Under the pieces are notes generated by a model. It saw only the letters and a program-made list of their open reading frames with translations, was not told the DNA's origin and did not search any database. Shown piece by piece: positions 356-23,978 of a stretch of 64,000 nucleotides of DNA. A program made the position numbers and the translations under genes. Every line of letters begins with the position of its first letter. Position 1 is the stretch's first letter. This stretch comes from Deltaproteobacteria bacterium (lineage in GTDB: Bacteria; Bdellovibrionota; FAC87; UBA2466), in NCBI GenBank assembly GCA_900299195.1, contig OMIX01000089.1, positions 2,892 to 66,891 of the forward strand, given 5' to 3'.

Positions 356-1885
356 TTATCCGATAGCTTCTGCTTGAATCCACTGCTTAGAAGCAGGTAA
401 AGGCTCTAAAAACTTGCCTCGACAATTGTCACACTTGCGACAGATTTCCCCATGTTTTTCCCCGAAGTAATCTCTAAAAAAAGTTGCCCGACACTCGGTA
501 GTCTGACCATATTTCATAATCTGTTGAATCCTATCTCTATCCTGACCCAAACGTTCCTCATAATGAGTCAAAAACCGATCCAGATCGTTTCCTTCTAAAA
601 AAATCTTCTTAAGTGAAATTCCCTTTCGGCTTTGAATAATCTTTTCTTTCTCCAAATAAGCTATCAAAACTTGAGCTTTTCTTTTCACAATTCCAGAAAT
701 GGAAACCACTTCTTCCAAAGAAGTTTTTTTAGCACCCACCTCGGTGCATTTAATCAGCGCTGAATAAAGTTGAGAGGCATCAGAACGAGTGGGATATTTT
801 CCACCGAGAAAAAACGAATGAACCCTTTTGTCTTCTAAACGATAAAGCAAAGCGACAATCGCCTTTTTCCCATCGCGACCGGCTCTTCCTGCCTCTTGGT
901 AGTAGCTTTCTACCGAATCTGGAAAAGTATAATGAATCACAAATCTCACATCGGGTTTATCAATGCCCAGTCCAAAAGCCTTAGTCGCTACGATCACTCG
1001 ATATCGGTTAGCCATAAAATCTTCTTGAACAGCATCGCGATCCTTCATTTTCATTTTGCCATGATATTTCCCAGCTATAATTCCTGCTTTAAGAAGTTGA
1101 GCGTGAAGTTCATTGGCTAATCTAACCGTGCTCACATAAACAATTCCAGTTCCTTCAATATCGTGAATTAAAGTAGTCAACCGTTGGAATTTCATTTCTG
1201 CATTCACCGTTCGGTAAACTTCAAAAACTAAATTTTTTCGATCCACTCCCGTATGACAAACTTTTACCTCTTTGAGATTTAATTGTTCTAAAATATCACG
1301 CTCTACTTCCGGAGTAGCCGTTGCAGTCAACGCCAGCACGGGTGGATTACCAAAAGCTTCAATGGCCTTACGAATCGAAAGATAGGCGGGACGAAAATCA
1401 TGTCCCCATTGGGAAACACAATGAGCTTCATCTACCACTAGAAGGGACACTCCGCCCTTTTTAAGAATTTCTAAATACTCTGGGTTCTCTAATCTTTCAG
1501 GAGTGACATAAACAAGCGCATTTTGCCCATTTTTGACATCCCTCACGGCCTGTTTTTCCTCCCGACTTGAAAGAGTGGAATCCAAGTGGGTCGCATCAAC
1601 CCCCACCTCTTCCAACTTGTGGGTTTGGTCATGCATTAATGAAATTAGAGGAGTCACTACAATAGTAGCTTTAGGTAAAAACAGTGCAGGCAATTGATAA
1701 CAAAGGGATTTTCCGGCTCCAGTAGGCATAACACCCAACGCATTTTTCCCGTTCATGACCGCTTCGATCAATTCTTTTTGGCCGGGACGGAGCTCTTCAA
1801 TACCAAAATACTCAAAAGCCTTTTGCCGTAATTTGGCCCAGTTCCACTTAGAAGACACACTTCGATGTTTCTGCCCACGCACCAC
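356..1885 (-). CDS. recQ: ATP-dependent DNA helicase RecQ
   Basis: Walker A 'PTGAGKS', DEAH box 'VVDEAH', helicase C motifs, RecQ C-terminal zinc motif 'CRKCDNC'; 509 aa. Confidence 0.9.
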   Translation of the reverse strand: MVRGQKHRSVSSKWNWAKLRQKAFEYFGIEELRPGQKELIEAVMNGKNALGVMPTGAGKSLCYQLPALFLPKATIVVTPLISLMHDQTHKLEEVGVDATHLDSTLSSREEKQAVRDVKNGQNALVYVTPERLENPEYLEILKKGGVSLLVVDEAHCVSQWGHDFRPAYLSIRKAIEAFGNPPVLALTATATPEVERDILEQLNLKEVKVCHTGVDRKNLVFEVYRTVNAEMKFQRLTTLIHDIEGTGIVYVSTVRLANELHAQLLKAGIIAGKYHGKMKMKDRDAVQEDFMANRYRVIVATKAFGLGIDKPDVRFVIHYTFPDSVESYYQEAGRAGRDGKKAIVALLYRLEDKRVHSFFLGGKYPTRSDASQLYSALIKCTEVGAKKTSLEEVVSISGIVKRKAQVLIAYLEKEKIIQSRKGISLKKIFLEGNDLDRFLTHYEERLGQDRDRIQQIMKYGQTTECRATFFRDYFGEKHGEICRKCDNCRGKFLEPLPASKQWIQAEAIG

Positions 1886-1919: not shown

Positions 1920-2384
1920 CTAGCGAGAGTGGAGAGGGACTGTTAAGTTTGAACGGGCTACAAAAATTTGTTCCATTCGATCAAGGTCGGCCTCAAGATG
2001 GTCGGCCAAATGTTCCCAATCAGAATCGCCTGCTAATCTCAAATCCCTTAACTCTTTCCGCACCAATTGATGATCAGCTCTAAGCTCCCGAAAAACTTTT
2101 CTTAAATAACTTCTCCGCGTGGATAATAATCGAGAAGCATGGATCTCCGCTTTCAACACCTCAAACTTGGTTCTCCAACTTTCAATCTCCTCCGCCAGTT
2201 TTTTTTCCCGCTCTATCCGAGTTGAGTCAATGGGAGTTTCCTGTACCGGCTCATCCACTGATCGTTCACTCTCAAGATGAGAAACTTTACCCGTCACTAC
2301 GGCTAAACTAAGCAAAAATAGCCCCCCCATCACAAAAAACCACTTTACCCTTTTACGGAGTTCCGGCTTAAGCTCCATGGGCAC
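1920..2384 (-). CDS. hypothetical membrane-anchored coiled-coil protein
   Basis: N-terminal hydrophobic segment followed by a charged heptad-like region; overlaps the upstream gene by 17 nt. Confidence 0.4.
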   Translation of the reverse strand: MPMELKPELRKRVKWFFVMGGLFLLSLAVVTGKVSHLESERSVDEPVQETPIDSTRIEREKKLAEEIESWRTKFEVLKAEIHASRLLSTRRSYLRKVFRELRADHQLVRKELRDLRLAGDSDWEHLADHLEADLDRMEQIFVARSNLTVPLHSR

Positions 2385-5875: not shown

Positions 5876-6811
5876 ATGAACCCTTTCTCCTACAGTCACC
5901 GGCTAAAACTGGGGTTGTCCCTGCTACTACTGATTTTATGGCCTCTCTCCGCTCTGGCTGAGCCTTACGAGCCCCCAGAAGATCGAGAACTTGAACTTAG
6001 ACCTTATTTCGAACCCCCCAATAAAGACCTCACCCCTAGAAACTTTCTTTTGCCCCCTCTCATGTCTTTTCTTATTCCCGGATCTGACCAGTGGGTAGAA
6101 GGTCAAATGAAGCCAGCCGCACTTTATACTGGCGGTGGGGCTTTAGGAGCTTTACTTCTCACACAGGCAAAGAAAACAACTCTGGATAATCGTTATAGAG
6201 ACTTTGCTTGGAGTATCTATTTTACCGCTGGAGGGTTAAGTCTTTATCACAGCTTCCACACGGCTTTAACGACGAGAATGCCAGGGGGCGAGTTTACTTT
6301 TATGGGCTCGGTCCCAGAAAAACCGACTGAGCTATTAGAAGCTCCTATTAACTTTAGCTACTTGGGCCGTTGGACCACGTTACTCCCTCTCAGTCTAGCA
6401 GCTGGCGTCTTTTTTTTCGTAACTCCTAATACCACTGCTGAAAGCACCCCAGCTAATCTCGACGATGCCTTTTATGCAGGCTCGGTAGGTTACATGACCG
6501 GGATAGGCGAAGAGGCTGTTTTTCGAGGTTTTGTCCTTCCAGTGCTTTATCACTACACTTCGGATCAACGGCTTACCCTAGGTCTTTCCAGCATTCTTTT
6601 TGCTTTGGGCCATGGATTGAAAGTGAGCCACTTTGTGACCGCTTTTTTCTTTGGGTTGTACTCGGGCTGGTTAACTCAGGAAAACAACTGGTCCATCGGT
6701 GAGGTCACCTTCATCCACACTTGGTGGGATATCATGGCATTTATGGCCGATTACACTAACCACCGCAAACACGCCTTTTTGAAGTTACCTACCATAGCAA
6801 TCAGCTTCTAA
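5876..6811 (+). CDS. CPBP-family (CAAX-protease-like) intramembrane metalloprotease with signal peptide
   Basis: Multi-TM protein with 'EEAVFRGF' (EExxxR) motif and downstream 'FALGH'/'H' motifs typical of Abi/CPBP proteins. Confidence 0.6.
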   Translation: MNPFSYSHRLKLGLSLLLLILWPLSALAEPYEPPEDRELELRPYFEPPNKDLTPRNFLLPPLMSFLIPGSDQWVEGQMKPAALYTGGGALGALLLTQAKKTTLDNRYRDFAWSIYFTAGGLSLYHSFHTALTTRMPGGEFTFMGSVPEKPTELLEAPINFSYLGRWTTLLPLSLAAGVFFFVTPNTTAESTPANLDDAFYAGSVGYMTGIGEEAVFRGFVLPVLYHYTSDQRLTLGLSSILFALGHGLKVSHFVTAFFFGLYSGWLTQENNWSIGEVTFIHTWWDIMAFMADYTNHRKHAFLKLPTIAISF

Positions 6812-8251: not shown

Positions 8252-9241
8252 ATGGGGTATCGAGTAGGCATTATCGGAGCTGGCCTTATCGGAAACAAAA
8301 GGGCTAAAGCTCTTCGTTCTGAAGATAGGTTAGTAGCTGTTGCGGATCTCTCTCTTGAAAGAGCCCAATCCCTAGCTGAAACCCACCAAGCCCAGGTGGA
8401 ATCCTCATGGGAAAATCTCATTGAAAGAGCTGACATTGATGTTGTCATCGTGGCCACCTCAAATAATGCTATCCCCCTTTGTGCCGCCAGGGCTCTAAAA
8501 AACAAAAAAGCTATTTTGATTGAAAAACCCGGGGGAAGAAATCCTCAGGAGTTAAAAGGACTACTTGAGCTAGAAAAAGAAACTCAACAAGTGGCTAGAG
8601 TAGGCTTCAATCATCGGTTTCACCCGGCCCTACTCAAAGCCAAAAACATGATCGAAGAAGGTGCCATCGGAGAGATCATGTACTTAAGAGCTCGTTACGG
8701 ACATGGAGGGAGAATCGGCTACGACCAGGAATGGCGAGCTAATCCAGAAATCTCAGGTGGGGGAGAACTTTTAGATCAAGGGGTTCACTTGATCGATCTT
8801 TGTCGATGGCTGGGGGGTGAATTTCATTTGGAGTACGGTCGAGTTCACACTTTTTTTTGGAACATGCCCGTTGAAGACAATGGATTTCTTCTTTTAAAAT
8901 CTCCAGATCAAAAAAGGTTTGCGCATCTTCATGCAAGCTGTACCGAATGGAAAAACATTTTCGATTTTGAGGTTTTTGGTAAGAAAGGGAAACTCCAAGT
9001 GTGGGGGTTAGGTCGAAGTTATGGAACTGAGGAACTTCGTTTTTACAAAGTAAAACCTGAAATGGGAGTTCCTGACTTCTTCGTAGACTCGTTTCCTGAA
9101 GAAGATCATTCTTGGGAACTAGAATGGAAAGCTTTTATTGATTCTCTAGAAGGGAAACCCTCTTCAATCAGCACCCTTCAAGATGCTTATCAAGCCTTAG
9201 ACATCGTCTATAAAGCCTATCAACAATCAGGGAATCGCTAG
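8252..9241 (+). CDS. Gfo/Idh/MocA family NAD(P)-dependent oxidoreductase
   Basis: N-terminal Rossmann motif 'GIIGAGLIGNKRAKAL', 'IEKP' motif, C-terminal dimerisation domain. Confidence 0.8.
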   Translation: MGYRVGIIGAGLIGNKRAKALRSEDRLVAVADLSLERAQSLAETHQAQVESSWENLIERADIDVVIVATSNNAIPLCAARALKNKKAILIEKPGGRNPQELKGLLELEKETQQVARVGFNHRFHPALLKAKNMIEEGAIGEIMYLRARYGHGGRIGYDQEWRANPEISGGGELLDQGVHLIDLCRWLGGEFHLEYGRVHTFFWNMPVEDNGFLLLKSPDQKRFAHLHASCTEWKNIFDFEVFGKKGKLQVWGLGRSYGTEELRFYKVKPEMGVPDFFVDSFPEEDHSWELEWKAFIDSLEGKPSSISTLQDAYQALDIVYKAYQQSGNR

Positions 9242-10996
9242 TTCCTGAATTTGCTCAAAAAACTTTTCGTCCCACAAGTAATTAGGATCGTAGGGATAAC
9301 TTACCATGGACATTATTCGACGATAATAATCTTCTTCTTCTCGTGTTCCTCTGATTTGAGCTTTTATCGGCTGACTATCTTGAGGAAGACTTTCTAAAAT
9401 ATCTTCTAACCCATCATAAATTTTGGGCACTTTGAAAAGTTGCGGAGACCGGAAAAGTGGAAAGAAAGATACTTCCGAAGAGATAGCGCTTTCAATCACG
9501 GCTGAGGAATCATTACAAATACCGACATAGGCATAACCATCTGAGGGATAATCCTTAGCATAAAGCTGGGCCTCTTTGCGAATTCGTCTTAAGTAAAGTT
9601 CAGCGTATCGAGTTGCCTTTTTGATGATGGCTCTATTTTGAGGAGAATTATCAAAAATCTGAAACCGATGGGCTAGGCCGGTCCATTGAGGCCTTTCCTC
9701 GTCAAATTTCGGGAAAAACCCTACCCCGCTAATACCCAAGAAAAAATTCACCCGAGCATTAACGACAGGTCCCGTCACTTGCCAAACAAATTGGGAATGA
9801 GGGGCGGGTAAAAGCAATTCATCACCTGACATCGATTGGATTTGAGTTTTAAACCAAACGGGCCATCGAATATATTTTTCCCCTCTTGCGTAAGATAGAA
9901 AATTCGCAAAGGTTCTCTCATCTCGTAATTCAATGTGATGCCCCGTAGCCCACAAGAGTTCCAAAAACTCGTTCAACTGGGTCACTTTCATTCGTTCGTT
10001 GCCTTCAAAAGGAAAAGATAGCTCATACCCTTTTTGCTCAGCTAGAGCGGTCATAACTGAACTTAAAGCTAAATTTTGAGCCATCATCTTTAAAGGGACC
10101 GATTCTGAGACAAAATGGCCGTAACCGATATTGGGTAATTTGGGATCAACAGCCTGCAATTTTGGATAAGAAGTAAACTCATTACTTGCAATGACATCTT
10201 CCCACTGAGCAGGTAAGAGACTGTTTTCAGAACCTGCTTTCTTCTTTCCGATAAACTTAGATAAATAGGGTCTTAGGAGATTCAATTGATTGACCGAAGG
10301 TAATGTTGGAAATCGGGCTAGAGCTTTTCCATCTTTTTTTGAGAGAACTTGGGTGACTTGACTCACCAGCTTTTGCATTTCCTCTCCAGGAACTGTGTTC
10401 AGCTTCAAAAACTGTGTGAGTTTTTCTGAAAAAACTCTAAGTTCCTCAGGCTGGAGCCCTCGAATAAACTCAGCAAGAGATAATTCAGGACGACCACACC
10501 CCGCTACGCACTCCACGTTCCATAAATCATGGCTCTTAGGAACCACTAAAAGGTAGTTACCGCTCTTTTCAAGTTCGACATGATAAATGAGCTGCTTTTT
10601 AGAGGAACTGGCTCCAGGAGATACCTCTTTAAAAAACCTCTCTTTGTGGTCCGATTCTTTTTTGATTAAAATGTGAGACGTTTTGCTTTCATCGATAAAA
10701 TCTTTGGAAGGCACCACCTTGATTTTTAGTCGGGTATTGCCGAACGAATGATATCGATAGGAGACTTGGATATCTTCAGGAAAATTCTTTTGATTGAGAA
10801 CTAAATTAAAATCTAGAGGGAATTGAAGCTTTGGTTCACCTCTATCTAAGCTATCGGCCCACAGAAGGGAACCACTCAAAACGAAAGTGAATGCGAAAAT
10901 AAAAAGACGATACGCCTTAGGTATCCCAAGCCTCAAAAACACGACTGACCTCCTGAAAAGCAAACGCAAATTAAGGCATTTGCTGCATCGGGTCAA
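9227..10996 (-). CDS. hypothetical exported/membrane-anchored protein (589 aa); downstream partner of the Cys/Arg-rich peptide gene
   Basis: N-terminal hydrophobic anchor; no recognisable catalytic motif; 13-nt gap to the upstream small gene. Confidence 0.5.
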   Translation of the reverse strand: MTRCSKCLNLRLLFRRSVVFLRLGIPKAYRLFIFAFTFVLSGSLLWADSLDRGEPKLQFPLDFNLVLNQKNFPEDIQVSYRYHSFGNTRLKIKVVPSKDFIDESKTSHILIKKESDHKERFFKEVSPGASSSKKQLIYHVELEKSGNYLLVVPKSHDLWNVECVAGCGRPELSLAEFIRGLQPEELRVFSEKLTQFLKLNTVPGEEMQKLVSQVTQVLSKKDGKALARFPTLPSVNQLNLLRPYLSKFIGKKKAGSENSLLPAQWEDVIASNEFTSYPKLQAVDPKLPNIGYGHFVSESVPLKMMAQNLALSSVMTALAEQKGYELSFPFEGNERMKVTQLNEFLELLWATGHHIELRDERTFANFLSYARGEKYIRWPVWFKTQIQSMSGDELLLPAPHSQFVWQVTGPVVNARVNFFLGISGVGFFPKFDEERPQWTGLAHRFQIFDNSPQNRAIIKKATRYAELYLRRIRKEAQLYAKDYPSDGYAYVGICNDSSAVIESAISSEVSFFPLFRSPQLFKVPKIYDGLEDILESLPQDSQPIKAQIRGTREEEDYYRRIMSMVSYPYDPNYLWDEKFFEQIQELAIP

Positions 10997-11009
10997 TACA
11001 CTATTTTAG

Positions 11010-11246
11010 CTAGCAGATACGACGACAGCGGGTTCGGCATCGAACTCTAGCTACCGAGTAACATCGCACCCGTTTCACGCATCTAGAAACCGGCCGAACG
11101 CACCTTCGAGCACAAGGTCTAGCCCTAACAACGGGCGCACAGCCATGGCTTCCACATCTAGCTTCTGCCGGTGTAGGCGCTAATGTAGCTAAAGTTACTC
11201 CGACTAAAAACAACCCTTTAATCGTATTTTTACCAATACTTAACAC
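11010..11246 (-). CDS. secreted cysteine- and arginine-rich cationic peptide precursor (78 aa, GTG start)
   Basis: Signal peptide ending 'PAEA'; mature 49 aa with 10 Cys and about 14 Arg; strong SD 'AGAGGGG' 7 nt upstream of GTG; locally GC-rich. Confidence 0.45.
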   Translation of the reverse strand: MLSIGKNTIKGLFLVGVTLATLAPTPAEARCGSHGCAPVVRARPCARRCVRPVSRCVKRVRCYSVARVRCRTRCRRIC

Positions 11247-11519
11247 AGTTTTACCCCTCTATTAATTCCAACTCCTAGGTGAGAACTGATTGAAAGTTCT
11301 CACTAGGTTCCGTCTGGGCTAAGAGCAATGAATGTACCAAACTAAAAATAGGTTATCTTCGAAGGTTACAATTGTCCTATAGGTGGGCAAACGAAAACTT
11401 GTTAAACAATTTCATTAAAAGCGACAAAATTTGTTACTTTGTGGAACCCAATGGGACCGGACCGTAGCGTTCAGATTTGGATTACCTAGCTACTTCGAAA
11501 AGTGCTTTCCTTCCGCTGA

Positions 11520-13650: not shown

Positions 13651-14988
13651 TTACTGTTTCTGAATGGGTGGACCCGATTTCTCTGGAACATCCTTCAATT
13701 CAAAACTGTCGGTCTGAGGAATTTCCTCCGACTTCTGCTGTTTCAGTTGAGATTTCGAAGGTACCTGAGTTTCAGGAATGACTTTCTCCGATGCCTTCAC
13801 CGAAGTGATTGGAGCCGCAGGGGCACTTCCCCATCCCAATGCTAACGAGGCCAAATATCTTCGGCTCTCTCTTCGATTGCCTTCACTAGTCTCCTCACCG
13901 TAAGTCGCTAAATCTAGCCTTAAAGCATAGAGATTGATTCCAAGTCCGGCCGAGAGATATCCCTGATTAAGACCAGCTCTCACTGAGAATCTCCCCATGG
14001 GAACCTCGACCCCCAAGTGAAGTTTCTTAACAAAATCTCCGGTTCTAGCCCCAAAGTCTGCCCGGTTTTCTCCCCCTAAAGAAATATCAGAAATGTCGGC
14101 TAGCACATGGAAGTTATCAATGAAGGAAAATCCTTCAAAAGCGGTATACCAACCCAAGTTAACCGTTCGAACAAGACCTGGAGCCCCGGCGTTTTGTTTA
14201 GCAATCGCAAACTGAGTTGCTAACAAATTACTCAAAACAATCGAAGCTCGACTTAACACCCCAAAAGGAAGTTGTTTTATCTCGTAAGTCGCTCCTAAAT
14301 CAAGATCGACTCCCATCCCACTTCCCCCGATTTTAGCCGGATCAAAATCGATGGCAGAACTATTGTTATATTCGGCAAGAGTAAAGGGTTTTCTGCCAGC
14401 CCCTCGCAACAAACCTTTCAGATTTGCGCCTAGATGTAAGTTGGAATCGAAAAATGATTGGGCATATCCAATGAGCAGTCCCGAATCGCTGATGAAAGAC
14501 ATCTCGGCCACTTCAGTATTCACATCAGCCAAACTAGCGATGTCTGAACTGGATTTCAGAATATTAAAATTGAGTTTGGTATCGGCTAATAAAAGTCCCA
14601 CCGCAAGATTTTTGGTTAGAAAATAGGGTAAAAGCCCCACACTTCCAAACATAGGTTTTTCTTTATGTTTGTCTAATCGATTGATGGCCTGATTAATGTT
14701 GAGATCTCCCAGATCTTTGAAATCATTAAAACCAGAAATGGCATTGGAAGACACATTCCCATTCACTCTCAACATCACTTCAGTGCCACTGCGTCTTAAA
14801 CTTAAACCAGCCGGATTCGAAAAGAGTGCGTATTCATCCTCTGAAATTCCATAGAAGGCTCCGCCCATTCCCATGGACCTTGGGCTGCGTGAAAGACTGT
14901 AAAATTCTTTCACTGCAAATAAGGGGTAAGAAAAAAAAGTTAAACCTAATAGGATAACAAAAAGGTGTTTCATGGAGATCTCTCTCAA
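13651..14988 (-). CDS. FadL/OmpP1/TodX-family outer-membrane transport protein with disordered C-terminal tail (paralog of 37702..39144)
   Basis: Signal peptide; N-terminal hatch motif 'RSMGMGGAFYGISEDEYALFSNPAG' resembling FadL '[26 protein letters not shown]'; Pro/Glu/Lys/Ser-rich C-terminus lacking a terminal aromatic residue. Confidence 0.55.
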   Translation of the reverse strand: MREISMKHLFVILLGLTFFSYPLFAVKEFYSLSRSPRSMGMGGAFYGISEDEYALFSNPAGLSLRRSGTEVMLRVNGNVSSNAISGFNDFKDLGDLNINQAINRLDKHKEKPMFGSVGLLPYFLTKNLAVGLLLADTKLNFNILKSSSDIASLADVNTEVAEMSFISDSGLLIGYAQSFFDSNLHLGANLKGLLRGAGRKPFTLAEYNNSSAIDFDPAKIGGSGMGVDLDLGATYEIKQLPFGVLSRASIVLSNLLATQFAIAKQNAGAPGLVRTVNLGWYTAFEGFSFIDNFHVLADISDISLGGENRADFGARTGDFVKKLHLGVEVPMGRFSVRAGLNQGYLSAGLGINLYALRLDLATYGEETSEGNRRESRRYLASLALGWGSAPAAPITSVKASEKVIPETQVPSKSQLKQQKSEEIPQTDSFELKDVPEKSGPPIQKQ

Positions 14989-15087: not shown

Positions 15088-16038
15088 TTAAAAATCTTTG
15101 GATAACTCGAGGCTATGAGAAAAAGCGATGTCAGACCACTTGAAGATCTCTGGACGATTGGATCGATGAGTCAGAAAAAGCAAACCGGTTTTTTGGTTTG
15201 GATTTTCATGAAATAGGGCACAGATTTCTTTTCCCGTTTTATCTTTGATGATTTGAACATTTTCTGGCAATTGTCCGGTTTGGAAGTATTGATTCAAAAT
15301 TTGGTTTCTCTTTAAAGTGTAACCTTCAGGGGGATTCCATGCGCTTCCGATTAAACGAGTAAAAGCATCGACGGAATCGGGTCGATACTCTTCAGGTAAC
15401 TCTTTCCGAGCAAAGGAGTAAAGCGCTTGAATCTCCTCCATGATAGCTTTTGAGGCCTCAGTGGAAGGCTCCATCCCGATCGCTCTTTTGTAGAGCATCA
15501 CCACACCGAAATGCTGCTGACTATCCGTGACCATTCTGCGATATCCGCCAGCTTTTAGCATCTCGATCATTTGATTTTTTACATGGAGAAAAACTTCAAT
15601 TGGAAGTCCTTTTCTAAGTTGATCGGCATTCAATTTATTGGGGGCCTGGGGCGCTAAGGGGTTTTCTAAGACTAGTCCATCGACCGAAATAGATTCAGGT
15701 TTGGTTTCATCGGGAATTAAAGTAACGTGAACGTAAACTCGTCCCGCAACTTCCCCATTAATTCGTAATCGACCTGTGGGTAAATATTCCAGCCTCAGAG
15801 AAAAAGGGCCTTTCTTACTTTCCACTTCCTTCACGAACGCTTCTGGGAACAACTGAGCCGTCGAAAGTTTTAGATTTCTTTCCTTAAATTGCCAAGGTTC
15901 AAAAGCATTGGGCTTAGAATCAGAAGAGCTAAGCGCAACTTTAGAAAAAATATAGTCACAGTCAGCATAGGAAGGCTCTCCCCCCACCCATGCAATCCCT
16001 AAAAGAAAAATCAAATGGTAAAGCTTCGCCTTTTGCAC
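15088..16038 (-). CDS. hypothetical secreted protein (316 aa)
   Basis: Signal peptide; no recognisable motif. Confidence 0.45.
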   Translation of the reverse strand: MQKAKLYHLIFLLGIAWVGGEPSYADCDYIFSKVALSSSDSKPNAFEPWQFKERNLKLSTAQLFPEAFVKEVESKKGPFSLRLEYLPTGRLRINGEVAGRVYVHVTLIPDETKPESISVDGLVLENPLAPQAPNKLNADQLRKGLPIEVFLHVKNQMIEMLKAGGYRRMVTDSQQHFGVVMLYKRAIGMEPSTEASKAIMEEIQALYSFARKELPEEYRPDSVDAFTRLIGSAWNPPEGYTLKRNQILNQYFQTGQLPENVQIIKDKTGKEICALFHENPNQKTGLLFLTHRSNRPEIFKWSDIAFSHSLELSKDF

Positions 16039-17039: not shown

Positions 17040-17753
17040 GTGTATTCTAGGCTTAAAATCACTGGATTTTATTTTGCAGCTTCCTCTAAGTGGGGGGGCG
17101 CTGTATCTGTTCAGCGCGATTCAATCATGTATAGCCTTTCGATTCCGCTGCCATTCACACTGTTTTTTCTTTTTCAGTTTTTGTTCTATTCCAACACCCG
17201 TGGGAATGATCACGGTCCCGATTCGAAACAATCGAACCCATCTTTTAGTGCCAGCGATTTTGAATGTGTGAAATCTGAAAATGGATTTCGTCCCCGACAC
17301 AAAGAGATAAAAAAGCCCCTGGGTGCGGGAACTTTTAAAACTCTAGAAACCTGTAAACAAGCAATCAAGGTTTCAAAAAACGATATCGTTTGTGCGTCTA
17401 CCGGGCTCCCAGGAGGATTCAAACCTACTTTCAAAGCTGGGGTCACTCCATCCCGGCCAGATTGGGGATATGTCGGTGGTTCATCAATGACGCTTGAAGC
17501 CTGTCTTTTTGCCACAGAACAATCTCTGCCATCATCTATTTGTTTCTTTGGAGGAAAAGACGGCGTAACTGTCGGAGGTCCCGAAACCCCAGGTTGGTAT
17601 GCAACCCATCCCTCGGGCAATAAAAGCCGAAAAGGTGGCCCCTATGAATCTCTCCAAAAATGTGTCGAAGCGACTCATATAAAGTTCGAAGAGGACAAAA
17701 AACAGTTGAGGGGACTTTTTGAAAGTCTGCCCGATTCTGAAATCGCCCAATAG
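17040..17753 (+). CDS. hypothetical secreted Cys-containing protein (start possibly at internal Met, about 17127)
   Basis: Hydrophobic N-terminal segment; no motif; same strand as and just upstream of the diheme protein. Confidence 0.35.
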   Translation: MYSRLKITGFYFAASSKWGGAVSVQRDSIMYSLSIPLPFTLFFLFQFLFYSNTRGNDHGPDSKQSNPSFSASDFECVKSENGFRPRHKEIKKPLGAGTFKTLETCKQAIKVSKNDIVCASTGLPGGFKPTFKAGVTPSRPDWGYVGGSSMTLEACLFATEQSLPSSICFFGGKDGVTVGGPETPGWYATHPSGNKSRKGGPYESLQKCVEATHIKFEEDKKQLRGLFESLPDSEIAQ

Positions 17754-17777: not shown

Positions 17778-19562
17778 ATGAACTCAAAAACACCCTTTTT
17801 GGTCTTTTACATGGGATTAATGACTCTGGCCCCGACTGGAACTTTGATTGCAGACCGCAGCTCTTCTCGCTGGGATAGACTAGAAAAGCAACTTAAAGAA
17901 GATTCCCATGACCCTGATTTCCCACAAAGAGTCAAAGAGCTTTCAGACTTTCTTAAGAAAACCCAGCGCCCTTCCTCGAAACAAAAAAACTCAAAAGATG
18001 CCCAAGATTGCGATTGCGAGCCAGAGTCTCTAAAGTCTCCGTTTCACAACCCAAAAACAGCAGATTTGAAACCTCACAACTCTTTAATTACGAATGCCTG
18101 CTTCGATTGTCACTCTTCCCCCAACAGTGGTTTTAAGCTAACTCCATGGATTGATGATAAACAGGAATGGGAGCGAAGACTCAAATCTACGACTGCAGAG
18201 GAAAAACTTGAAGCGGAGAAATTATTAGGTCAGCTTTATCGAACTTTGGTTGATGGAAACAACATGCCTCCTGCTAGCGAATCCACCCTTCGACAACAAT
18301 TTAAAAAACATCCGAACCATGCAACTTTTGTTTCATTTATCAAAGAAAAATTTGAACAACTGCCGCAAAATGCAGTCAATACTCAAACAAGAAAAGCTGC
18401 TTCCAATCGGGTATCAGTCATGGAAGAAAAACTTGAAAACCACTACCGCAGTCTATTACCGAAAGTATCAAGTCAAACGCTGAACAACTTGTTTTCCGAC
18501 CCTAACCTTATTTTTATGGATGAAACTCACTTGGTGGCTGGTTATCAAGATCCAAGCCCCAAGGCAATGGGAGAAAGAACGACAACTTTAGGTTTTAAGG
18601 GTGCGGGTTTTGCCAAAGATGCACCCTATTTGGATAGCAAGGGACATTTAAAATTATGGACGACAGGGTTTGGAGTGGATCAAAGCCCCAACCTTAAACG
18701 GTTCCACTTTTTACAACTTCCCCAAAATGAAATGGGCGAACTTCAAAAGATCAAGGTCTCAAGCCGAAGATCAGCGTCTCCAGATGACGGTATTGTTTAC
18801 GATTGGAAATTTCCCTTGGGAACCGTTTCTGGAGAAGTGATCGCTAGTGTAGACTCTGAAGGCAAAGAGCATGTTCTGGAAGTTAGATTACGAACGAAAG
18901 ATAATTCAGAAGGCCCCTGGGGTGCAGATATTTTCAGACCTTATCCCACCAAAACTATTTTAATGGATGAACTCCTGAAAATCTCTCAAAGCAATAGTCC
19001 GCTTGCATCCGAAGCGGACAGGGTGATGAAAGAGCTTAAACTTCCAGGAAGATTAACGCCACAAAGCTCCGGAATGCACGGCTACCAGAGAGGCGAACTC
19101 AATTCCGATGGTGGCACAGAAGTCTTGCCTGAAATGTCTGAAGCCTTAACAAAAAGATTACTTCAAGTCCCCTTTCAATCCTCACTCGGATCTGAATGGG
19201 ACAGAAATGAAAAAGTTAAAGCCTTTGGGGCAACTTCCGACCAACCTTTTAGTATCGTGCCTCAAAATAACACTGAGGGAAGTGTGCAAGTGGGGCGTGA
19301 AAGTTGCGGACGCTGTCATAAAAACAGTAACACACCCATCAGAGATTTTTTCAATCCCAACCACCCCAAATATTACTCTTCAATTGTGGCTTATGGAAAT
19401 ACCCCAGGCAGCGATCAGCAATTACGTTTCCACCCGTTTGACCAGGAATTGTTTAAATGGTTTGGAAATGACACCTACGAAAAAAAAATCGGAAAAGCGG
19501 ATAACCGAGAGTTTAATCCAGCACTCAAACCTATTTTGGAAATACTTCCGTCCAAAAAATAG
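17778..19562 (+). CDS. secreted protein with two c-type heme-binding motifs (putative diheme cytochrome/peroxidase-like)
   Basis: Signal peptide; two CxxCH motifs ('CFDCH' and 'CGRCH') about 400 residues apart. Confidence 0.5.
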   Translation: MNSKTPFLVFYMGLMTLAPTGTLIADRSSSRWDRLEKQLKEDSHDPDFPQRVKELSDFLKKTQRPSSKQKNSKDAQDCDCEPESLKSPFHNPKTADLKPHNSLITNACFDCHSSPNSGFKLTPWIDDKQEWERRLKSTTAEEKLEAEKLLGQLYRTLVDGNNMPPASESTLRQQFKKHPNHATFVSFIKEKFEQLPQNAVNTQTRKAASNRVSVMEEKLENHYRSLLPKVSSQTLNNLFSDPNLIFMDETHLVAGYQDPSPKAMGERTTTLGFKGAGFAKDAPYLDSKGHLKLWTTGFGVDQSPNLKRFHFLQLPQNEMGELQKIKVSSRRSASPDDGIVYDWKFPLGTVSGEVIASVDSEGKEHVLEVRLRTKDNSEGPWGADIFRPYPTKTILMDELLKISQSNSPLASEADRVMKELKLPGRLTPQSSGMHGYQRGELNSDGGTEVLPEMSEALTKRLLQVPFQSSLGSEWDRNEKVKAFGATSDQPFSIVPQNNTEGSVQVGRESCGRCHKNSNTPIRDFFNPNHPKYYSSIVAYGNTPGSDQQLRFHPFDQELFKWFGNDTYEKKIGKADNREFNPALKPILEILPSKK

Positions 19563-19600: not shown

Positions 19601-20941
19601 TTAAAGTTCTGTAGCTTTTTCAAGCCGTTGAATCCGTTTCAAGAATGCCCCAGCTTGAAAGCGTAGCTTAGGAATCCAATAATAGGGTTTAAATTCTAAA
19701 AATCGTCTCTGATAGATCGATAGATATCTTTGTACTTGTTCTTGCGAATAAGCCAGTCCATTATCGGCATATTTACCCACATAAATCGAAAAGTCAGAAT
19801 TGAGATCTTGAGTCGTCCACTTCCCATTCAGAGTAACTTTCATAAAATTGCCAATTAATAAATCCTCAAAAATTCCAAGCTGAATCGAAAGCATGAGCGA
19901 ATTTCTTGGAACTTCAAAAGTGATTCCTCTTTGAAATTGTCTAGTTTTCCAAGTCACACGATTATCTACACCGCCAACCCGCACATTGATAAAATCTAAA
20001 TAGTTTCCAAGATGTTCAATCCGCTTAAAATACTTTTCGATCTGTTCAAAATCACCCTTGTGAAGGGGCTCATCCCAATCATCCCCAAATTCTTTACAAT
20101 TTCTAATTTTTATCGGCATAGATTCGGGACGAATTTCAATCCAGCTTTCACTATTAAAATCATACCGAATAAACGCCGGTAAAATCTGACTTATTTCTGA
20201 CTGATACCCTTCGTATAGGTCCTGCATCCTCCTGGAGTAATCATTGGCCCAAGCACTATCATTTCTTTGGAACGCATGGAAGGAACTACTAGGAACAAAA
20301 TACCGGGCTCCAAATCGCTCTGCCTTTTTTGCATTTTCGATACCCGCGGGCGGCCGATTCAAATACTCCTTTGGGACAATGAATTGTCCGTTCTCATCAT
20401 AGTAATTAAGCATATCGGCGATACCTAGCGATGAGATCGAGAAAAGAAATGAATTTTGATATTTTTTGCCTAAATTTTTGATGTAATGGTTTCTGCCAAA
20501 ATCAACAGCATCATTGCAGTTAATTAACAAATTATTTTTTACTTCAATAAGTAAAATCGAGTCCTGATACTGGTCTGACCAACATAAAACTCTGACATTC
20601 TCCGAAAGGGAATACCACTTTCTATCTTTGAGAACTGTAACATCATATCCTTCTGCTCTTAGACCAGAAGCAATGCGCCCTCCCACATGGTCTGCTAACA
20701 ATATCTTTCTGTCCTTGAATTTAGGAAGTGAGTCTGGGTTTAAGTGGTCTGGATGCCCATGCGAAAACCAAACATATTTTGCATTTAGGATCGATTCCAT
20801 CTGAACTTGGGGAATTTGGTAGTTACAAATCCAGCTACCAAAATAAGCGTCTGGAGTGATCCAAGGATCGGTCACTAAGATCGGGGCTTCATCGTGAACA
20901 ATGATGGTTGCATTACCAATCGTTTCAAATCCCAGCTTCAT
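19601..20941 (-). CDS. MBL-fold metallo-hydrolase
   Basis: 'HGHPDH' (HxHxDH) motif near N-terminus; 446 aa. Confidence 0.7.
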   Translation of the reverse strand: MKLGFETIGNATIIVHDEAPILVTDPWITPDAYFGSWICNYQIPQVQMESILNAKYVWFSHGHPDHLNPDSLPKFKDRKILLADHVGGRIASGLRAEGYDVTVLKDRKWYSLSENVRVLCWSDQYQDSILLIEVKNNLLINCNDAVDFGRNHYIKNLGKKYQNSFLFSISSLGIADMLNYYDENGQFIVPKEYLNRPPAGIENAKKAERFGARYFVPSSSFHAFQRNDSAWANDYSRRMQDLYEGYQSEISQILPAFIRYDFNSESWIEIRPESMPIKIRNCKEFGDDWDEPLHKGDFEQIEKYFKRIEHLGNYLDFINVRVGGVDNRVTWKTRQFQRGITFEVPRNSLMLSIQLGIFEDLLIGNFMKVTLNGKWTTQDLNSDFSIYVGKYADNGLAYSQEQVQRYLSIYQRRFLEFKPYYWIPKLRFQAGAFLKRIQRLEKATEL

Positions 20942-22919: not shown

Positions 22920-23978
22920 ATGACAATTCTACAAAAGAACAATTACCTGATTCGGTTTATTTGTTTTATATTCACATCGCTCTTTGCCTCATCAGCCCTT
23001 TCCAGTGATGGGCCTCAAAATAGTGGCCGTCTTCAATTGAAGGCCTCTCAGAACCACCAAGTCGAAGCTATCCTCCAAGTAGATCGGAAAGCGCTTCAAG
23101 AACTTTTTTCAACAGCTAATACAGAAAAAGCGGCTGAGTTTCTGAATTTCTTTTGGGTCAGTTCGCAAGAAGCTATCTGTCCAATGGCCTCCCCGTCTTC
23201 GTTGGCTAATGAAAATACTATCTCAACTACATTTATTCTGAATTGTCCTAAAGCTCCAGAACAACTTAAAATTCAACTCACCCAACTTGAATCACTGCCT
23301 AAGGGGTTCTCCCTAGGAGTAAGAACAAACTTTGAGCATTTTGTTTTGGATATTGATAATACCCAAAAAGAAACTTTTTTAAGTCCTTTTCAAATATTTT
23401 TTCGATCAGGTCTTTCGATATTTAGCTTTTTGGGAGCCCATTCCCAAGGATCACCGTTGGCTCTCTCACAACTTGGACGCCCGTTTCCGCTCTATTTTGG
23501 TGGGCTCAGTATTTTACCAGTGGGAATTTGGTGGCTTTTATTAGTGGCCGCGATTGGTGTATCAAATTTGAAATTTAAGCAAAAAGTATTAGCGGTAGGA
23601 ATGGCTATTTTTTTCTCGGGTTGGGTAGCTTACTTCATTTTGTTTTCTCAAATGTCACTCAGACTTCTTTCTGTTAACCAAATTAGTTTTAGTTACTTGG
23701 CCTGCATTTCCTATCTCACCTTTTTGAGTTTTCGAACCCCAACTGAGCAACAAAAGAAGGGGTGCCTGTTTTTGTTGATCGTACTTTCAATTTTTAGTGG
23801 ATTTGAATTTAGCCTGATGTTGAGATGGCTTGAAGGAAACCGGACAGTTCCTCTGGGAATTTGCATCTCGAGTTTTTTTGCTGGGCTCACACTCAACACC
23901 GCTATTCTCATGACTGCTTTTCTTATTTTAGGGTTTAGTCTTTATTCAGCGATAGCCTTGGCTTTTAAACTCATGTGA
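22920..23978 (+). CDS. hypothetical polytopic membrane protein with N-terminal periplasmic domain
   Basis: Signal peptide followed by a soluble domain of about 150 aa and at least 6 predicted TM helices. Confidence 0.45.
   Translation: MTILQKNNYLIRFICFIFTSLFASSALSSDGPQNSGRLQLKASQNHQVEAILQVDRKALQELFSTANTEKAAEFLNFFWVSSQEAICPMASPSSLANENTISTTFILNCPKAPEQLKIQLTQLESLPKGFSLGVRTNFEHFVLDIDNTQKETFLSPFQIFFRSGLSIFSFLGAHSQGSPLALSQLGRPFPLYFGGLSILPVGIWWLLLVAAIGVSNLKFKQKVLAVGMAIFFSGWVAYFILFSQMSLRLLSVNQISFSYLACISYLTFLSFRTPTEQQKKGCLFLLIVLSIFSGFEFSLMLRWLEGNRTVPLGICISSFFAGLTLNTAILMTAFLILGFSLYSAIALAFKLM

What the first reader, a model, noticed from the sequence alone, without database searches (positions are those of the whole stretch)
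9227..11519. Secreted Cys/Arg-rich 49-aa cationic peptide encoded upstream of a 589-aa exported protein
The 78-aa ORF has a strong SD (AGAGGGG) 7 nt before a GTG start and a textbook signal peptide ending PAEA. The mature part has about 10 Cys and 14 Arg with internal repeats such as RCVRPVSRCVKRVRC, a defensin- or protamine-like composition that is very unusual for bacteria. The gene is a GC-rich patch in an AT-rich genome, with CTAG recurring about every 40 nt. It is followed after 13 nt by a large exported protein with no known domain. A 273-nt leader with a 13-bp stem-loop precedes it. The pair could be an antimicrobial or prey-directed peptide with its maturation or delivery partner, or a metal- or nucleic-acid-binding peptide.
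Basis: partly seen in the sequence, partly recalled or inferred. Interest (0 to 1): 0.6.

Follow-up and report, generated by a model that had tools for sequence, protein, structure and literature searches.

The report
Orphan secreted arginine/cysteine-rich peptide gene
An uncultured freshwater Bdellovibrio-like bacterium has a real, conserved gene for an exported 49-residue peptide that is one-third arginine and one-fifth cysteine; it has its own sigma-54-type promoter, no detectable relatives outside its clade, and is most plausibly a polyanion-binding or antimicrobial peptide, though its function is untested.

Summary
The 78-codon ORF (window 11246..11010, minus strand) is a real gene. Orthologues lie at the same position in 8 distinct lineages (13 loci) of one clade of uncultured Bdellovibrionota. 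Purifying selection is specific to this frame: pN/pS is 0.2-0.4, against 1-3 in the shifted frames. The invariant residues include Pro-6, Ala-3 and Ala-1 of a Sec signal peptide, a GSH motif, and a C-terminal Cys/Arg frame that always ends in Cys. The mature peptide has 49 aa, 15 Arg, 9 Cys, no acidic residue and a net charge near +16. Pfam, NCBIfam, PADLOC, PHROGs, PDB sequences and an exhaustive profile search of 1.84 billion proteins gave no relatives beyond the clade.

Two new points. The "273-nt leader" holds a conserved sigma-54 -24/-12 promoter (TGGTAC-N5-TTGCT), with a conserved palindrome about 80 nt upstream. The large gene starts at GTG 10942 (571 aa, 67-nt gap) behind its own conserved promoter-like block. 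Its family occurs widely without the peptide and folds as a PPC-like beta-sandwich plus a possible permuted NlpC/P60-like Cys-His domain. So the "peptide plus maturation partner" reading is not supported. The CTAG periodicity is incidental. Function is inferred only. It is best described as a new variant of the secreted cationic Cys-rich peptides.

The parts
11421..11437 (-). Conserved palindrome GTAACAA-ATT-TTGTCGC; candidate upstream activator site for a sigma-54 enhancer-binding protein
   Evidence: It is aligned in the orthologous leaders and lies 74-87 nt upstream of the -24 element in 6 of 8 lineages. The pattern GTRRCAA-N3-TTGKCRC is found only in peptide-bearing loci, 8 of 71 loci, always at this position. 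Its role as an activator site is inferred.
11388..11407 (-). Second conserved leader box (window GTTTAACAAGTTTTCGTTTG; orthologues GTCCAACAGATTTCCGTCTG), between the palindrome and the promoter
   Evidence: It forms a conserved block in the 8-lineage leader alignment. An IHF-like or second activator site is only a guess.
11324..11339 (-). Sigma-54-type -24/-12 promoter TGGTACATTCATTGCT (GG 11338-11337, GC 11326-11325); predicted transcription start near 11313
   Evidence: It is the only match to TGGYAY-N5-TTGCW in the 64 kb window, where 0.16 are expected. The pattern occurs exactly once, on the same strand and 76-95 nt before the start codon, in all 13 peptide-bearing loci, and in only 1 of the 56 other loci then held.
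11274..11307 (-). Stem-loop (13 pairs, one bulge) near the 5' end of the predicted 5' UTR
   Evidence: The fold is shown (MFE -17.6 kcal/mol, z -1.1, not exceptional). Hairpins of different sequence sit at the same place in the orthologous UTRs.
11254..11260 (-). Shine-Dalgarno-like AGAGGGG, 7 nt before the GTG
   Evidence: The sequence is. A GGGG(T) motif lies 6-9 nt before the start codon in 7 of 8 orthologues.
11160..11246 (-). Signal peptide, residues 1-29 (MLSIGKNTIKGLFLVGVTLATLAPTPAEA)
   Evidence: It has the n/h/c architecture of a signal peptide. Pro24 (-6), Ala27 (-3) and Ala29 (-1) are invariant in 8 lineages while the rest of the segment varies. Cleavage itself is inferred.
11010..11159 (-). 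Mature peptide (49 aa, RCGSHGC...RVRCRTRCRRIC) plus the TAG stop
   Evidence: Composition is. The invariant residues are G32, S33, H34, R43, C45, R51, R55, C56, R61, V65, R67, R69, C70 and C74. Selection is frame-specific and purifying.
10968..10996 (-). Conserved sigma-70-like promoter block for the large gene: TTGACC, 17-nt spacer, TAATTT
   Evidence: The block TTGACx-N17-TAAxTT-GCG is conserved in all 8 lineages between the peptide stop and the large gene. The consensus scanner flags it only in L067 and not in the window or L002, because the -10 hexamer is weak.
10949..10954 (-). Shine-Dalgarno AGGAGG of the large gene
   Evidence: The sequence is. It is conserved in orthologues.
9227..10942 (-). 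Exported 571-aa protein: signal peptide, PPC/collagen-binding-like beta-sandwich, helical linker, and an alpha/beta domain with invariant His335, His382 and Cys476

Best explanation
Shown:
- Window 11246..11010 (-) is a genuine protein-coding gene, kept under purifying selection in one clade of uncultured, mostly freshwater Bdellovibrionota.
- It encodes a pre-peptide with a classic Sec/SPase-I signal (invariant P-6, A-3, A-1).
- The passenger is 46-50 aa with 13-17 Arg, 8-10 Cys and no acidic residue. It has an invariant GSH motif near its N-terminus and a conserved C-terminal frame, C-x5-7-C-x3-C-x3-C, that ends at the C-terminus.
- The gene is preceded by a conserved -24/-12 element of sigma-54 type, a conserved palindrome about 80 nt further upstream, and a UTR of about 67 nt that carries a hairpin.

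Inferred:
- The gene is off by default. It is switched on by an unidentified enhancer-binding protein acting through sigma-54.
- The peptide is exported by Sec, cleaved after AEA, and oxidised to a disulfide-stapled polycation in the periplasm or outside the cell.
- There it binds phosphate-rich polyanions such as lipid A/LPS, phospholipids or nucleic acids. Most likely it is an antimicrobial, competitor- or prey-directed peptide.
- The strong preference for Arg over Lys (15:1, in a genome that prefers Lys) argues for binding of phosphate or other oxyanions.
- The neighbouring 571-aa exported protein is a separate unit with its own promoter-like block. It may be a permuted NlpC/P60-like Cys-His hydrolase or acyltransferase with a PPC-like binding domain. 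It is not a dedicated maturation partner.
For: - Orthologous ORFs sit at the same place in L001/L004, L002/L064, L003/L062/L063, L005, L065/L066, L067 and L068/L069.
- Synonymous sites are near saturation (pS 0.53-0.90) while pN is 0.10-0.43.
- pN/pS is 0.20-0.42 in this frame and 0.8-3.2 in the shifted frames. Codon positions 1/2/3 differ at 0.35/0.24/0.62.
- The invariant residues fall on the SPase-I recognition positions and on Cys/Arg positions.
- Composition and charge are given.
- The Arg codon usage matches the rest of the window, so the gene looks native.
- The sigma-54 element is unique in the window. It is present once and correctly placed in 13 of 13 peptide loci, against 1 of 56 other loci.
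- The spacing to the start codon and to the palindrome is conserved. The palindrome is specific to these loci.
- The large gene has its own conserved TTGACx-N17-TAAxTT block and AGGAGG site.
- The large-protein family occurs without the peptide in unrelated contexts.
- Background knowledge, not tested here: Arg-rich disulfide peptides and protamines are generally antimicrobial, and Bdellovibrio bacteriovorus has an uncharged lipid A that could give a producer intrinsic tolerance.
Against: - There is no functional, expression or localisation data of any kind.
- AlphaFold gives no confident fold for the peptide (pLDDT 48).
- Beta-strand amphipathicity of the C-terminal 24 residues is only weakly above shuffles, and it is absent in 3 of 8 orthologues.
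- The Cys number varies (8, 9 or 10) and is odd in the window's peptide. That fits a rigid defensin-like scaffold poorly.
- The mature region is more conserved than the signal peptide. Many fast-evolving antimicrobial peptides show the opposite.
- A passenger with a charge of +16 is an awkward Sec substrate.
- No rpoN or enhancer-binding-protein gene lies in the 64 kb window.
- No immunity or export gene is evident next to the peptide gene.
- Whether this clade is predatory is unknown.
Confidence: 0.4

Rival explanations
1. Periplasmic metal- or metalloid-handling peptide. Under sigma-54/activator control, as for ZraP with ZraSR in enterobacteria, the exported Cys/His-rich peptide would sequester a thiophilic metal. 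With its Arg residues it could instead capture an oxyanion such as arsenate/arsenite, selenite or tellurite.
For: - The peptide has 8-10 Cys, with repeated C-x3-C spacing, and an invariant His in the GSH motif near the mature N-terminus.
- In L002 and L003 the predicted mature N-terminus is G-S-H, an ATCUN-like X-X-His arrangement.
- The variable Cys count is tolerable for a metal cluster.
- Sigma-54-type control fits a stress-inducible periplasmic protein.
Against: - A net charge of +13 to +18 and no acidic residue is unlike known metallothioneins or periplasmic metal chaperones, and it would repel cations.
- No metallothionein or metal-chaperone family is hit in Pfam or NCBIfam.
- The His sits at position 3, 4, 5 or 6 of the predicted mature peptide in different orthologues, so the ATCUN reading is not conserved.
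- No metal transporter or sensor gene is adjacent.
Confidence: 0.15
2. Self-directed envelope component. The peptide would stay in the producer's periplasm or outer membrane and act structurally. It could form a disulfide-cross-linked, polyanion-binding staple for LPS, peptidoglycan or an extracellular matrix, loosely like the small Cys-rich envelope protein OmcA of Chlamydia. It might be made only in a particular cell state selected by sigma-54.
For: - The mature sequence is under strong purifying selection, more so than the signal peptide. This suits a structural ligand better than an arms-race toxin.
- The odd Cys number in the window's peptide and in P0047 would allow intermolecular disulfides.
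- There is no neighbouring immunity gene.
Against: - A lipobox-like sequence occurs in only one orthologue, L001 (AVAAC). The others have plain AxA sites.
- There is no similarity to OmcA or any envelope family.
- The distribution is very narrow for a core envelope part.
Confidence: 0.12
3. The peptide and the adjacent 571-aa exported protein would work together: the protein would process, modify, carry or be inhibited by the peptide.
For: - The two genes are adjacent, in the same orientation, in every peptide-bearing locus found (13 of 13).
- The peptide was never found away from the large gene.
- Both products carry signal peptides.
- The window has no detectable terminator between the two genes, so sigma-54 transcripts may read through.
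- The large protein has an invariant Cys/His set and weak fold similarity to permuted papain-like enzymes.
Against: - The large gene has its own conserved promoter-like block and SD in the 67-157-nt spacer.
- The large family is far wider than the peptide and lies in unrelated contexts without it.
- The whole region is syntenic in this clade, so adjacency carries little information.
- There is no radical-SAM, ABC-exporter or other RiPP-type gene nearby.
Confidence: 0.12
4. Uncleaved membrane anchor with a cytoplasmic tail. By the positive-inside rule the +16 tail would stay in the cytoplasm, tethered by the N-terminal hydrophobic segment. It would bind nucleic acid (protamine-like) or zinc there.
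For: - The extreme positive charge lies C-terminal to the hydrophobic segment.
- The composition resembles mammalian protamine P1 (own knowledge).
Against: - The hydrophobic core is only about 13 residues. It is followed by an invariant helix-breaking Pro at -6 and an invariant A-x-A, which is the signature of a cleaved signal peptide and not of a transmembrane helix.
- The 8-10 residues after the cleavage site are mostly uncharged, although the window peptide and L065 have Arg at +1.
- BLASTP against bull protamine (sequence recalled from memory) gives nothing significant (E 0.99, or no alignment).
Confidence: 0.06
5. Spurious ORF, or a non-coding element such as an RNA gene on either strand.
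For: - Gene callers skipped the ORF in most assemblies. Only 3 called proteins exist in 5.8 billion clusters, and one assembly called a different frame.
- The composition is biased.
Against: - Purifying selection is frame-specific.
- The start context, signal-peptide logic and stop position are conserved in 8 lineages.
- Rfam has no hit.
- No ORF of 40 aa or more overlaps it on the opposite strand.
Confidence: 0.02

Closest known systems
Cationic disulfide-rich host-defence peptides (defensins, protegrin, tachyplesin, theta-defensin, hepcidin; bacterial defensin-like peptides such as laterosporulin or myxobacterial cis-defensins)
   Same: It is ribosomally made, carries a cleavable N-terminal signal, has a mature part of about 50 aa, many Cys and a high net positive charge rich in Arg. 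Locally it alternates Arg with Val/Cys/Thr (RVRCYTVTRVRCRTRC).
   Different: - No sequence or profile similarity to any of them.
- The Cys number is not fixed (8-10).
- The charge density is much higher: 31 % Arg and no acidic residue.
- It is produced by a Gram-negative bacterium from a sigma-54-type promoter.
- No fold could be predicted, and activity is untested.
Mammalian protamine P1
   Same: It has the same length (about 50 aa) and the same Arg- and Cys-dominated composition with intermolecular-disulfide potential. It would be expected to bind polyanions very strongly.
   Different: - Protamines are nuclear and have no signal peptide, whereas this peptide has a conserved cleavable one.
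- Arg is interspersed (R-x-C, R-x-x-R) rather than in long runs.
- BLASTP against the bull sequence is not significant.
Sigma-54/enhancer-binding-protein-controlled small periplasmic stress proteins (e.g. ZraP under ZraSR; own knowledge)
   Same: It is a small exported protein whose gene is preceded by a -24/-12 promoter and an upstream palindromic site.
   Different: - No sequence similarity.
- ZraP is larger and not Arg/Cys-rich.
- The regulator here is unidentified and is not encoded in the 64 kb window.
Cys-Xaa-Xaa-Xaa repeat radical-SAM target peptides (TIGR04117) and other Cys-rich RiPP precursors (SCIFF)
   Same: It is a small peptide with repeated C-x3-C spacing. This family is its only, very weak, HMM hit.
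   Different: - It scores 13.1 bits against a cut-off of 50.
- No radical-SAM maturase lies nearby.
- It has a Sec signal peptide instead of a RiPP leader.
For the neighbouring 571-aa protein: permuted papain-like/NlpC-P60 superfamily enzymes (YiiX/DUF1105 2if6, B. cereus cysteine peptidase 3kw0, CLN5, PLAAT/LRAT), together with PPC/collagen-binding domains
   Same: - The invariant His335 and His382 lie on strands ahead of the invariant Cys476, which sits at the N-terminus of a helix. This is the permuted His-before-Cys order.
   Different: - No Pfam, NCBIfam or PDB sequence match.
- The protein is much larger, with extra helical regions.
- The geometry of the catalytic residues was not checked.

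Membership tests
Secreted cationic disulfide-rich antimicrobial peptides (a functional kind, not a homology family) | Cleavable N-terminal signal peptide | tested here: met
   The n/h/c architecture is present. Pro-6, Ala-3 and Ala-1 are invariant in 8 lineages. Cleavage itself was not shown.
Secreted cationic disulfide-rich antimicrobial peptides (a functional kind, not a homology family) | Small mature peptide with a high net positive charge | tested here: met
   The mature peptides are 46-50 aa with charge +12.8 to +17.8 and pI 11.4-11.7.
Secreted cationic disulfide-rich antimicrobial peptides (a functional kind, not a homology family) | Fixed, even-numbered Cys framework forming a defined disulfide fold | tested here: inconclusive
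   Only 4 Cys are invariant, and the total is 8, 9 or 10. The C-terminal C-x5-7-C-x3-C-x3-C frame is conserved. The AlphaFold model is unusable (pLDDT 48).
Secreted cationic disulfide-rich antimicrobial peptides (a functional kind, not a homology family) | Amphipathic structure | tested here: inconclusive
   The beta hydrophobic moment of the last 24 residues exceeds shuffles only weakly (32-179 of 2000 shuffles reach it) in 5 orthologues, and not at all in L001, L065 and L067.
Secreted cationic disulfide-rich antimicrobial peptides (a functional kind, not a homology family) | Antimicrobial activity | not testable with these tools
   This needs synthetic or recombinant peptide and MIC or killing assays.
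Any described defensin, bacteriocin or other peptide family (homology) | Significant HMM, profile or sequence match | tested here: not met
   Pfam gave 0 hits. NCBIfam gave only TIGR04117 at 13.1 bits against a cut-off of 50. PADLOC and PHROGs gave 0. PDB sequences gave only a spurious hit on the signal peptide. The search of 1.84 billion representatives returned only the three input orthologues.
Protamine P1 | Arg/Cys-dominated composition in about 50 aa | tested here: met
   The peptide has 15 Arg and 9 Cys in 49 aa.
Protamine P1 | Sequence relatedness and an intracellular (DNA-bound) location | tested here: not met
   BLASTP gave E 0.99 or no alignment against bull P1, whose sequence was recalled from memory. 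The conserved cleavable signal peptide argues for export.
Radical-SAM-modified Cys-rich RiPP precursors (TIGR04117 / SCIFF) | HMM score above cut-off and an adjacent radical-SAM maturase | tested here: not met
   The score is 13.1 bits against 50. The neighbours are an aldo-keto reductase, an acetyl-CoA hydrolase, a GFO/IDH/MocA oxidoreductase, a SIS protein and a transaldolase.
Sigma-54-dependent promoter | -24 GG and -12 GC elements with exact spacing, close to TGGCAC-N5-TTGCW | tested here: met
   TGGTACATTCATTGCT lies at 11339..11324 and is the only match in the window, where 0.16 are expected.
Sigma-54-dependent promoter | Conservation of the element and of its position in orthologous loci | tested here: met
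   It occurs in 13 of 13 peptide loci, once each, on the same strand, 76-95 nt before the start codon. It occurs in 1 of 56 other loci.
Sigma-54-dependent promoter | Upstream activator site about 70-150 bp upstream | tested here: inconclusive
   A conserved palindrome lies 74-87 nt upstream of -24 and is specific to these loci. Neither binding nor the activator is known.
Sigma-54-dependent promoter | rpoN and a cognate enhancer-binding protein in the genome; rpoN-dependent transcription | not testable with these tools
   Only 64 kb of the genome is available, and none of the 34 window ORFs of 199 aa or more that were scanned hits a sigma-54 activator or factor domain. Transcription needs an experiment.
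Operon / dedicated two-gene system with the 571-aa protein | Co-transcription without internal promoter or terminator | tested here: inconclusive
   A conserved promoter-like block and SD lie in the spacer. The scanner found no terminator in the window, L002 or L067. L067 has a GC hairpin without a T-run.
Operon / dedicated two-gene system with the 571-aa protein | Co-occurrence of the two genes across the range of either family | tested here: not met
   The peptide is always found with the large gene. The large gene occurs in 40 or more loci without the peptide.
Permuted NlpC/P60 (YiiX/LRAT-like) Cys hydrolases (large protein) | Invariant His on beta-strands preceding an invariant nucleophile Cys at a helix N-terminus | tested here: met
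   H335, H382 and C476 are invariant in 30 sequences. Strands 336-345 and 381-390 and helix 476-488 are in the model. The three-dimensional proximity of these residues was not measured.
Permuted NlpC/P60 (YiiX/LRAT-like) Cys hydrolases (large protein) | Clear fold or HMM match | tested here: inconclusive
   [not shown]

The most novel reading that the evidence does not exclude
A lineage of Bdellovibrio-like bacteria makes a Sec-exported peptide of protamine-like composition: a disulfide-stapled polycation with about 16 positive charges in 49 residues. It would be released only on a sigma-54/activator signal, such as contact with prey or competitors. It would act as a weapon that permeabilises foreign envelopes or neutralises and condenses foreign polyanions (LPS, DNA, RNA). 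The producer would be protected by its own low-charge envelope. That would be a previously undescribed class of bacterial ribosomal antimicrobial with no homology to any known peptide.
Probability: 0.25. Interest if true: 0.75.

Novelty: new variant of a known kind. Interest (0 to 1): 0.5.

Why it matters
If the peptide is an exported polycationic effector, it would add a homology-free family to the few ribosomal, disulfide-rich cationic peptides known from Gram-negative bacteria. It comes from a phylum of predators whose small secreted effectors are largely unexplored. A 5.7-kDa sequence is easy to synthesise and test.

The case also shows that gene callers miss such genes. Only 3 called copies exist among 5.8 billion protein clusters, although the ORF is present in every sampled member of the clade.

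The conserved sigma-54 promoter and palindrome give a concrete handle for finding the inducing signal and its regulator.

Separately, the neighbouring 571-aa family is an uncharacterised exported protein with an invariant Cys/His set. Every named hit in the genome scan was a Bdellovibrionota, Myxococcota or Bradymonadia assembly.

Tried and rejected
- RNA gene on either strand: Rfam at gathering thresholds and ARAGORN found nothing in the region.
- Exact-sequence look-ups of the window's proteins failed, so the window's own contig could not be retrieved.
- A word-based search with the single peptide found nothing. A profile of 8 peptides found only 3 called orthologues. The exhaustive profile search found the same 3.
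- The metagenome pattern scan with the peptide alignment returned only 3 loci, all from lineages already seen.
- AlphaFold on the peptide gave pLDDT 48, which is unusable.
- afdb50 was unavailable for the large protein.
- CTAG periodicity as a signal was rejected. It is a codon-pair by-product and is not conserved.
- Horizontal transfer as the cause of the GC patch was rejected. Arg codon usage matches the genome, and the orthologues show the same patch.
- The 589-aa start was rejected in favour of GTG 10942.
- Homology to protamine was rejected.
- RiPP/radical-SAM, OmcA-like and metallothionein memberships were rejected. There are no HMM hits and no partner genes.
- Defence-system and phage families gave no hits.
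- A regulator was looked for in the window. No sigma-54 activator or rpoN was found among the 34 ORFs of 199 aa or more that were scanned.
- Three literature searches found no description of such a peptide.
- The 5' UTR hairpin is present, but its energy is not significant against shuffles.

Full report
**Observation**

The region was read on both strands. On the minus strand a 78-codon ORF runs 11246..11010. It has a GTG start, and AGAGGGG lies 7 nt upstream.

The product begins with a signal-peptide-like segment, MLSIGKNTIKGLFLVGVTLATLAPTPAEA. The remaining 49 residues are RCGSHGCAPVVRARPCARRCVRPVSRCVKRVRCYSVARVRCRTRCRRIC. They contain 15 Arg, 1 Lys, 9 Cys and no acidic residue. Net charge is about +15.8 and pI is 11.6.

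This is the most Cys+Arg-rich 49-residue stretch in any of the six frames of the window: 24 of 49, with the runner-up at 16. In 45 large ORFs of the window, Arg is 4.8 %, Lys 6.9 % and Cys 0.9 %.

The local GC rise (0.53 against about 0.41) follows from the Arg, Cys, Ala, Pro and Gly codons. The Arg codon usage of the ORF matches that of the genome, so the patch is not evidence of foreign DNA.

The five CTAG sites, 36-39 nt apart, are four GCT-AGA or TCT-AGA codon pairs plus the TGC-TAG stop. Orthologues have only 1-3 CTAG sites, mostly at other positions. The periodicity is therefore incidental.

**Is it a gene?**

No Rfam family or tRNA/tmRNA lies there. No ORF of 40 aa or more overlaps it on the plus strand.

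The neighbouring large protein has 46 homologues. Fetching their contigs showed that the whole neighbourhood is syntenic in a clade of uncultured bacteria. That neighbourhood comprises an aldo-keto reductase, then the small ORF, the large gene, and a convergent GFO/IDH/MocA-SIS-transaldolase-Rce1-like block. The bacteria are labelled Bdellovibrionales, Bdellovibrionaceae or "Deltaproteobacteria" MAGs.

In every member of this clade whose contig reaches upstream of the large gene, an ORF of the same kind sits at the same place. The loci are L001/L004, L002/L064, L003/L062/L063, L005, L065/L066, L067 and L068/L069.

The eight distinct peptides are 48-69 % identical to the window's peptide. The invariant positions are:
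- Pro24, Ala27 and Ala29, which are the -6, -3 and -1 positions of a type-I signal-peptidase site;
- Gly32-Ser33-His34;
- a set of Arg and Cys residues: R43, C45, R51, R55, C56, R61, R67, R69, C70, C74.

All of the peptides end in Cys. The C-terminal frame C-x5-7-C-x3-C-x3-C is conserved in 7 of the 8 lineages, and L001 lacks the last unit.

At the codon level, synonymous sites are close to saturation (pS 0.53-0.90) while pN is 0.10-0.43. The signal is specific to this frame. pN/pS is 0.20-0.42 here, against 0.8-1.7 and 1.7-3.2 in the two shifted frames. Codon positions 1, 2 and 3 differ at 0.35, 0.24 and 0.62.

**How far does the family reach?**

Not far.
- The single-sequence word search found nothing.
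- A profile of eight peptides found three called proteins among 5.8 billion clusters.
- An exhaustive HMMER search of 1.84 billion representatives returned only those same three.
- A back-translated pattern scan of 241 million metagenome records found three loci, all from lineages already seen.
- Pfam, NCBIfam, PADLOC, PHROGs and PDB sequences give nothing. The best hit is TIGR04117 at 13 bits against a cut-off of 50.
- AlphaFold yields no confident model (pLDDT 48).
- A relative with a 39 %-identical large protein (L008) has no such ORF.

The peptide is thus an orphan family confined to one clade. It is also mostly unannotated: gene callers skipped it or called another frame.

**The "leader"**

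Aligning the eight orthologous upstream regions shows that the 273 nt between the aldo-keto-reductase stop and the GTG is not one long leader. It contains four features.
1. A palindrome, GTAACAA-N3-TTGTCAC (window 11437..11421).
2. A second conserved box (11407..11388).
3. A perfect sigma-54-type -24/-12 element, TGGTAC-N5-TTGCT (11339..11324).
4. A UTR of about 67 nt that starts with a hairpin (11307..11274) and ends with the Shine-Dalgarno site.

The -24/-12 pattern TGGYAY-N5-TTGCW occurs once in the 64 kb window, where 0.16 are expected. It occurs exactly once in each of the 13 peptide-bearing loci, on the same strand and 76-95 nt before the start codon. It occurs in only 1 of the 56 other loci held at that time.

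The palindrome lies 74-87 nt upstream of the -24 element. In its strict form it is found only in peptide-bearing loci. This is the classic geometry of an enhancer-dependent sigma-54 promoter.

The activator is unknown. None of the 34 window ORFs of 199 aa or more that were scanned has a sigma-54 activator or factor domain.

Its energy is unremarkable (z -1.1). Hairpins of unrelated sequence occupy the same UTR position in orthologues. It may stabilise the mRNA, but I did not test covariation.

**The large gene**

The mechanical 589-aa ORF starts at a TTG (10996). That TTG is the first half of a conserved TTGACC hexamer.

All orthologues share the same block between the peptide stop and the large gene: TTGACx, a 17-nt spacer, TAAxTT, GCG, about 15 nt, then AGGAGG and a start codon. 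The database protein identical to the window's gene has 571 aa, which matches GTG 10942. The true gap is therefore 67 nt in the window and up to about 157 nt in relatives, and it holds a promoter-like element.

The simple sigma-70 scanner accepts this block only in L067, because the -10 hexamer is weak. The argument rests on conservation. No convincing terminator separates the genes, so read-through from the sigma-54 promoter remains possible.

The protein has a signal peptide and no Pfam or NCBIfam domain in any of 30 members. A confident AlphaFold model (pLDDT 85, pTM 0.86) shows:

The invariant His335 and His382 lie on strands, and the invariant Cys476 lies at the N-terminus of a helix. This fits the permuted His-before-Cys order of that superfamily. 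I did not check the geometry, so this assignment is tentative.

The family is much wider than the peptide. It appears in Kofleriaceae, Haliangiales, other Myxococcota, Bradymonadia, Bacteriovorax-like and other Bdellovibrionota MAGs. There it is often a lipoprotein, in unrelated neighbourhoods and with no upstream Cys/Arg ORF.

**Interpretation**

Shown:
- a conserved coding gene;
- the signal-peptide logic;
- extreme Arg/Cys composition with Arg strongly preferred over Lys (15:1, in a genome with R/(R+K) = 0.41);
- a conserved sigma-54-type promoter with an upstream palindrome;
- a separate promoter-like block for the large gene.

Inferred:
- export by Sec, cleavage after AEA, and disulfide formation outside the cytoplasm;
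- tight, signal-dependent expression through an enhancer-binding protein;
- binding of phosphate-rich polyanions.

I consider an antimicrobial or prey/competitor-directed role the most likely single function (overall confidence 0.4). Every well-studied peptide of this size, charge and Cys content binds and perturbs anionic envelopes or nucleic acids. Bdellovibrio-type envelopes can also be poor in negative charge (own knowledge; not tested for this clade).

Several points count against this reading.
- There is no predicted fold.
- The amphipathicity signal is weak and inconsistent.
- The Cys count is variable and sometimes odd.
- The mature region is more conserved than the signal peptide.
- No immunity gene is evident.
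- The lifestyle of the clade is unknown.

The rivals are a metal- or metalloid-binding periplasmic peptide, a self-directed envelope staple, a true functional pair with the neighbouring enzyme, an uncleaved membrane-anchored cytoplasmic polycation, and a spurious ORF. They are listed with their tests. The last is effectively excluded.

**Comparison with known systems**

The peptide works most like the secreted cationic, disulfide-rich host-defence peptides, and its composition is like protamine P1. It is a member of neither. No homology is detectable, and the signal peptide contradicts a protamine-like location. It fails the membership tests for radical-SAM Cys-repeat peptides, metallothioneins and chlamydial OmcA. 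The promoter meets the sequence-level definition of a sigma-54 promoter, but dependence on rpoN cannot be tested here.

**Verdict**

The "partner" interpretation is not supported. The object is a new, homology-free variant of a known kind, the secreted cationic Cys-rich peptides, with an unexpected sigma-54 regulatory design. It is moderately interesting and cheap to test experimentally.

Noticed in passing
window 9227..10942 (-) and loci L003-L061: The 571-aa exported protein belongs to an uncharacterised family with no Pfam domain and with invariant H335, H382, C476 and D478. In the genome scan it was found only in Bdellovibrionota, Myxococcota (Kofleriaceae, Haliangiales, Sandaracinaceae), Bradymonadia/Microvenator and a few unclassified MAGs. 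These groups are known for predatory members. It is often a lipoprotein.
   Followed up: partly
L008 699..2039 (+): L008 is the relative that lacks the peptide gene (large protein 39 % identical). In it, an NtrC-type response regulator / sigma-54 activator (receiver domain, GESGTGKE Walker A, C-terminal HTH) lies two genes upstream of the large gene. No -24/-12 match was found in that locus.
   Followed up: partly
window 9227..9241: The large gene and the convergent GFO/IDH/MocA oxidoreductase gene (8252..9241, +) overlap by 15 nt at their 3' ends.
   Followed up: no
window 5876..6811 (+): An Rce1-like/CPBP intramembrane protease gene lies about 4 kb from the peptide gene and is syntenic in all relatives. 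Members of this family sometimes act in bacteriocin immunity or processing. Three metabolic genes lie between it and the large gene.
   Followed up: no
window 1957..1974 (-): GGAACAAATTTTTGTAGC resembles the leader palindrome. It was found with a four-base-spacer pattern at 2 mismatches. It sits about 70 nt upstream of the RecQ-like helicase ORF (356..1885). No sigma-54 element accompanies it.
   Followed up: partly
L007 3535..3550 (+): This is the only sigma-54-pattern match outside the peptide leaders among the 69 loci. It lies in a close relative whose contig is cut inside the large gene, so its own peptide region is missing.
   Followed up: no
window 13651..14988, 15088..16038, 17040..17753, 17778..19562, 19601..20941, 22920..23978, 24058..25665, 37702..39144, 60504..62711: Nine sizeable ORFs (237-735 aa) have no Pfam match at E <= 1e-5 or 1e-6. 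The window is rich in uncharacterised proteins.
   Followed up: no
window 29363..29555 (-) and 56716..57642 (+): tRNA-Val(CAC) and tRNA-Leu(GAG) genes lie in tandem. A D12-class N6-adenine DNA methyltransferase has no restriction partner among the ORFs that were scanned.
   Followed up: no
L001 756..926 (+); L002 3671..3808 (+); L068 1153..1392 (+): A second open frame overlaps the peptide ORF on the same strand in several orthologues, and one assembly's gene caller chose it. It is not open in the window, and the shifted frames show pN/pS >= 0.8. It looks like a by-product of the biased composition.
   Followed up: yes
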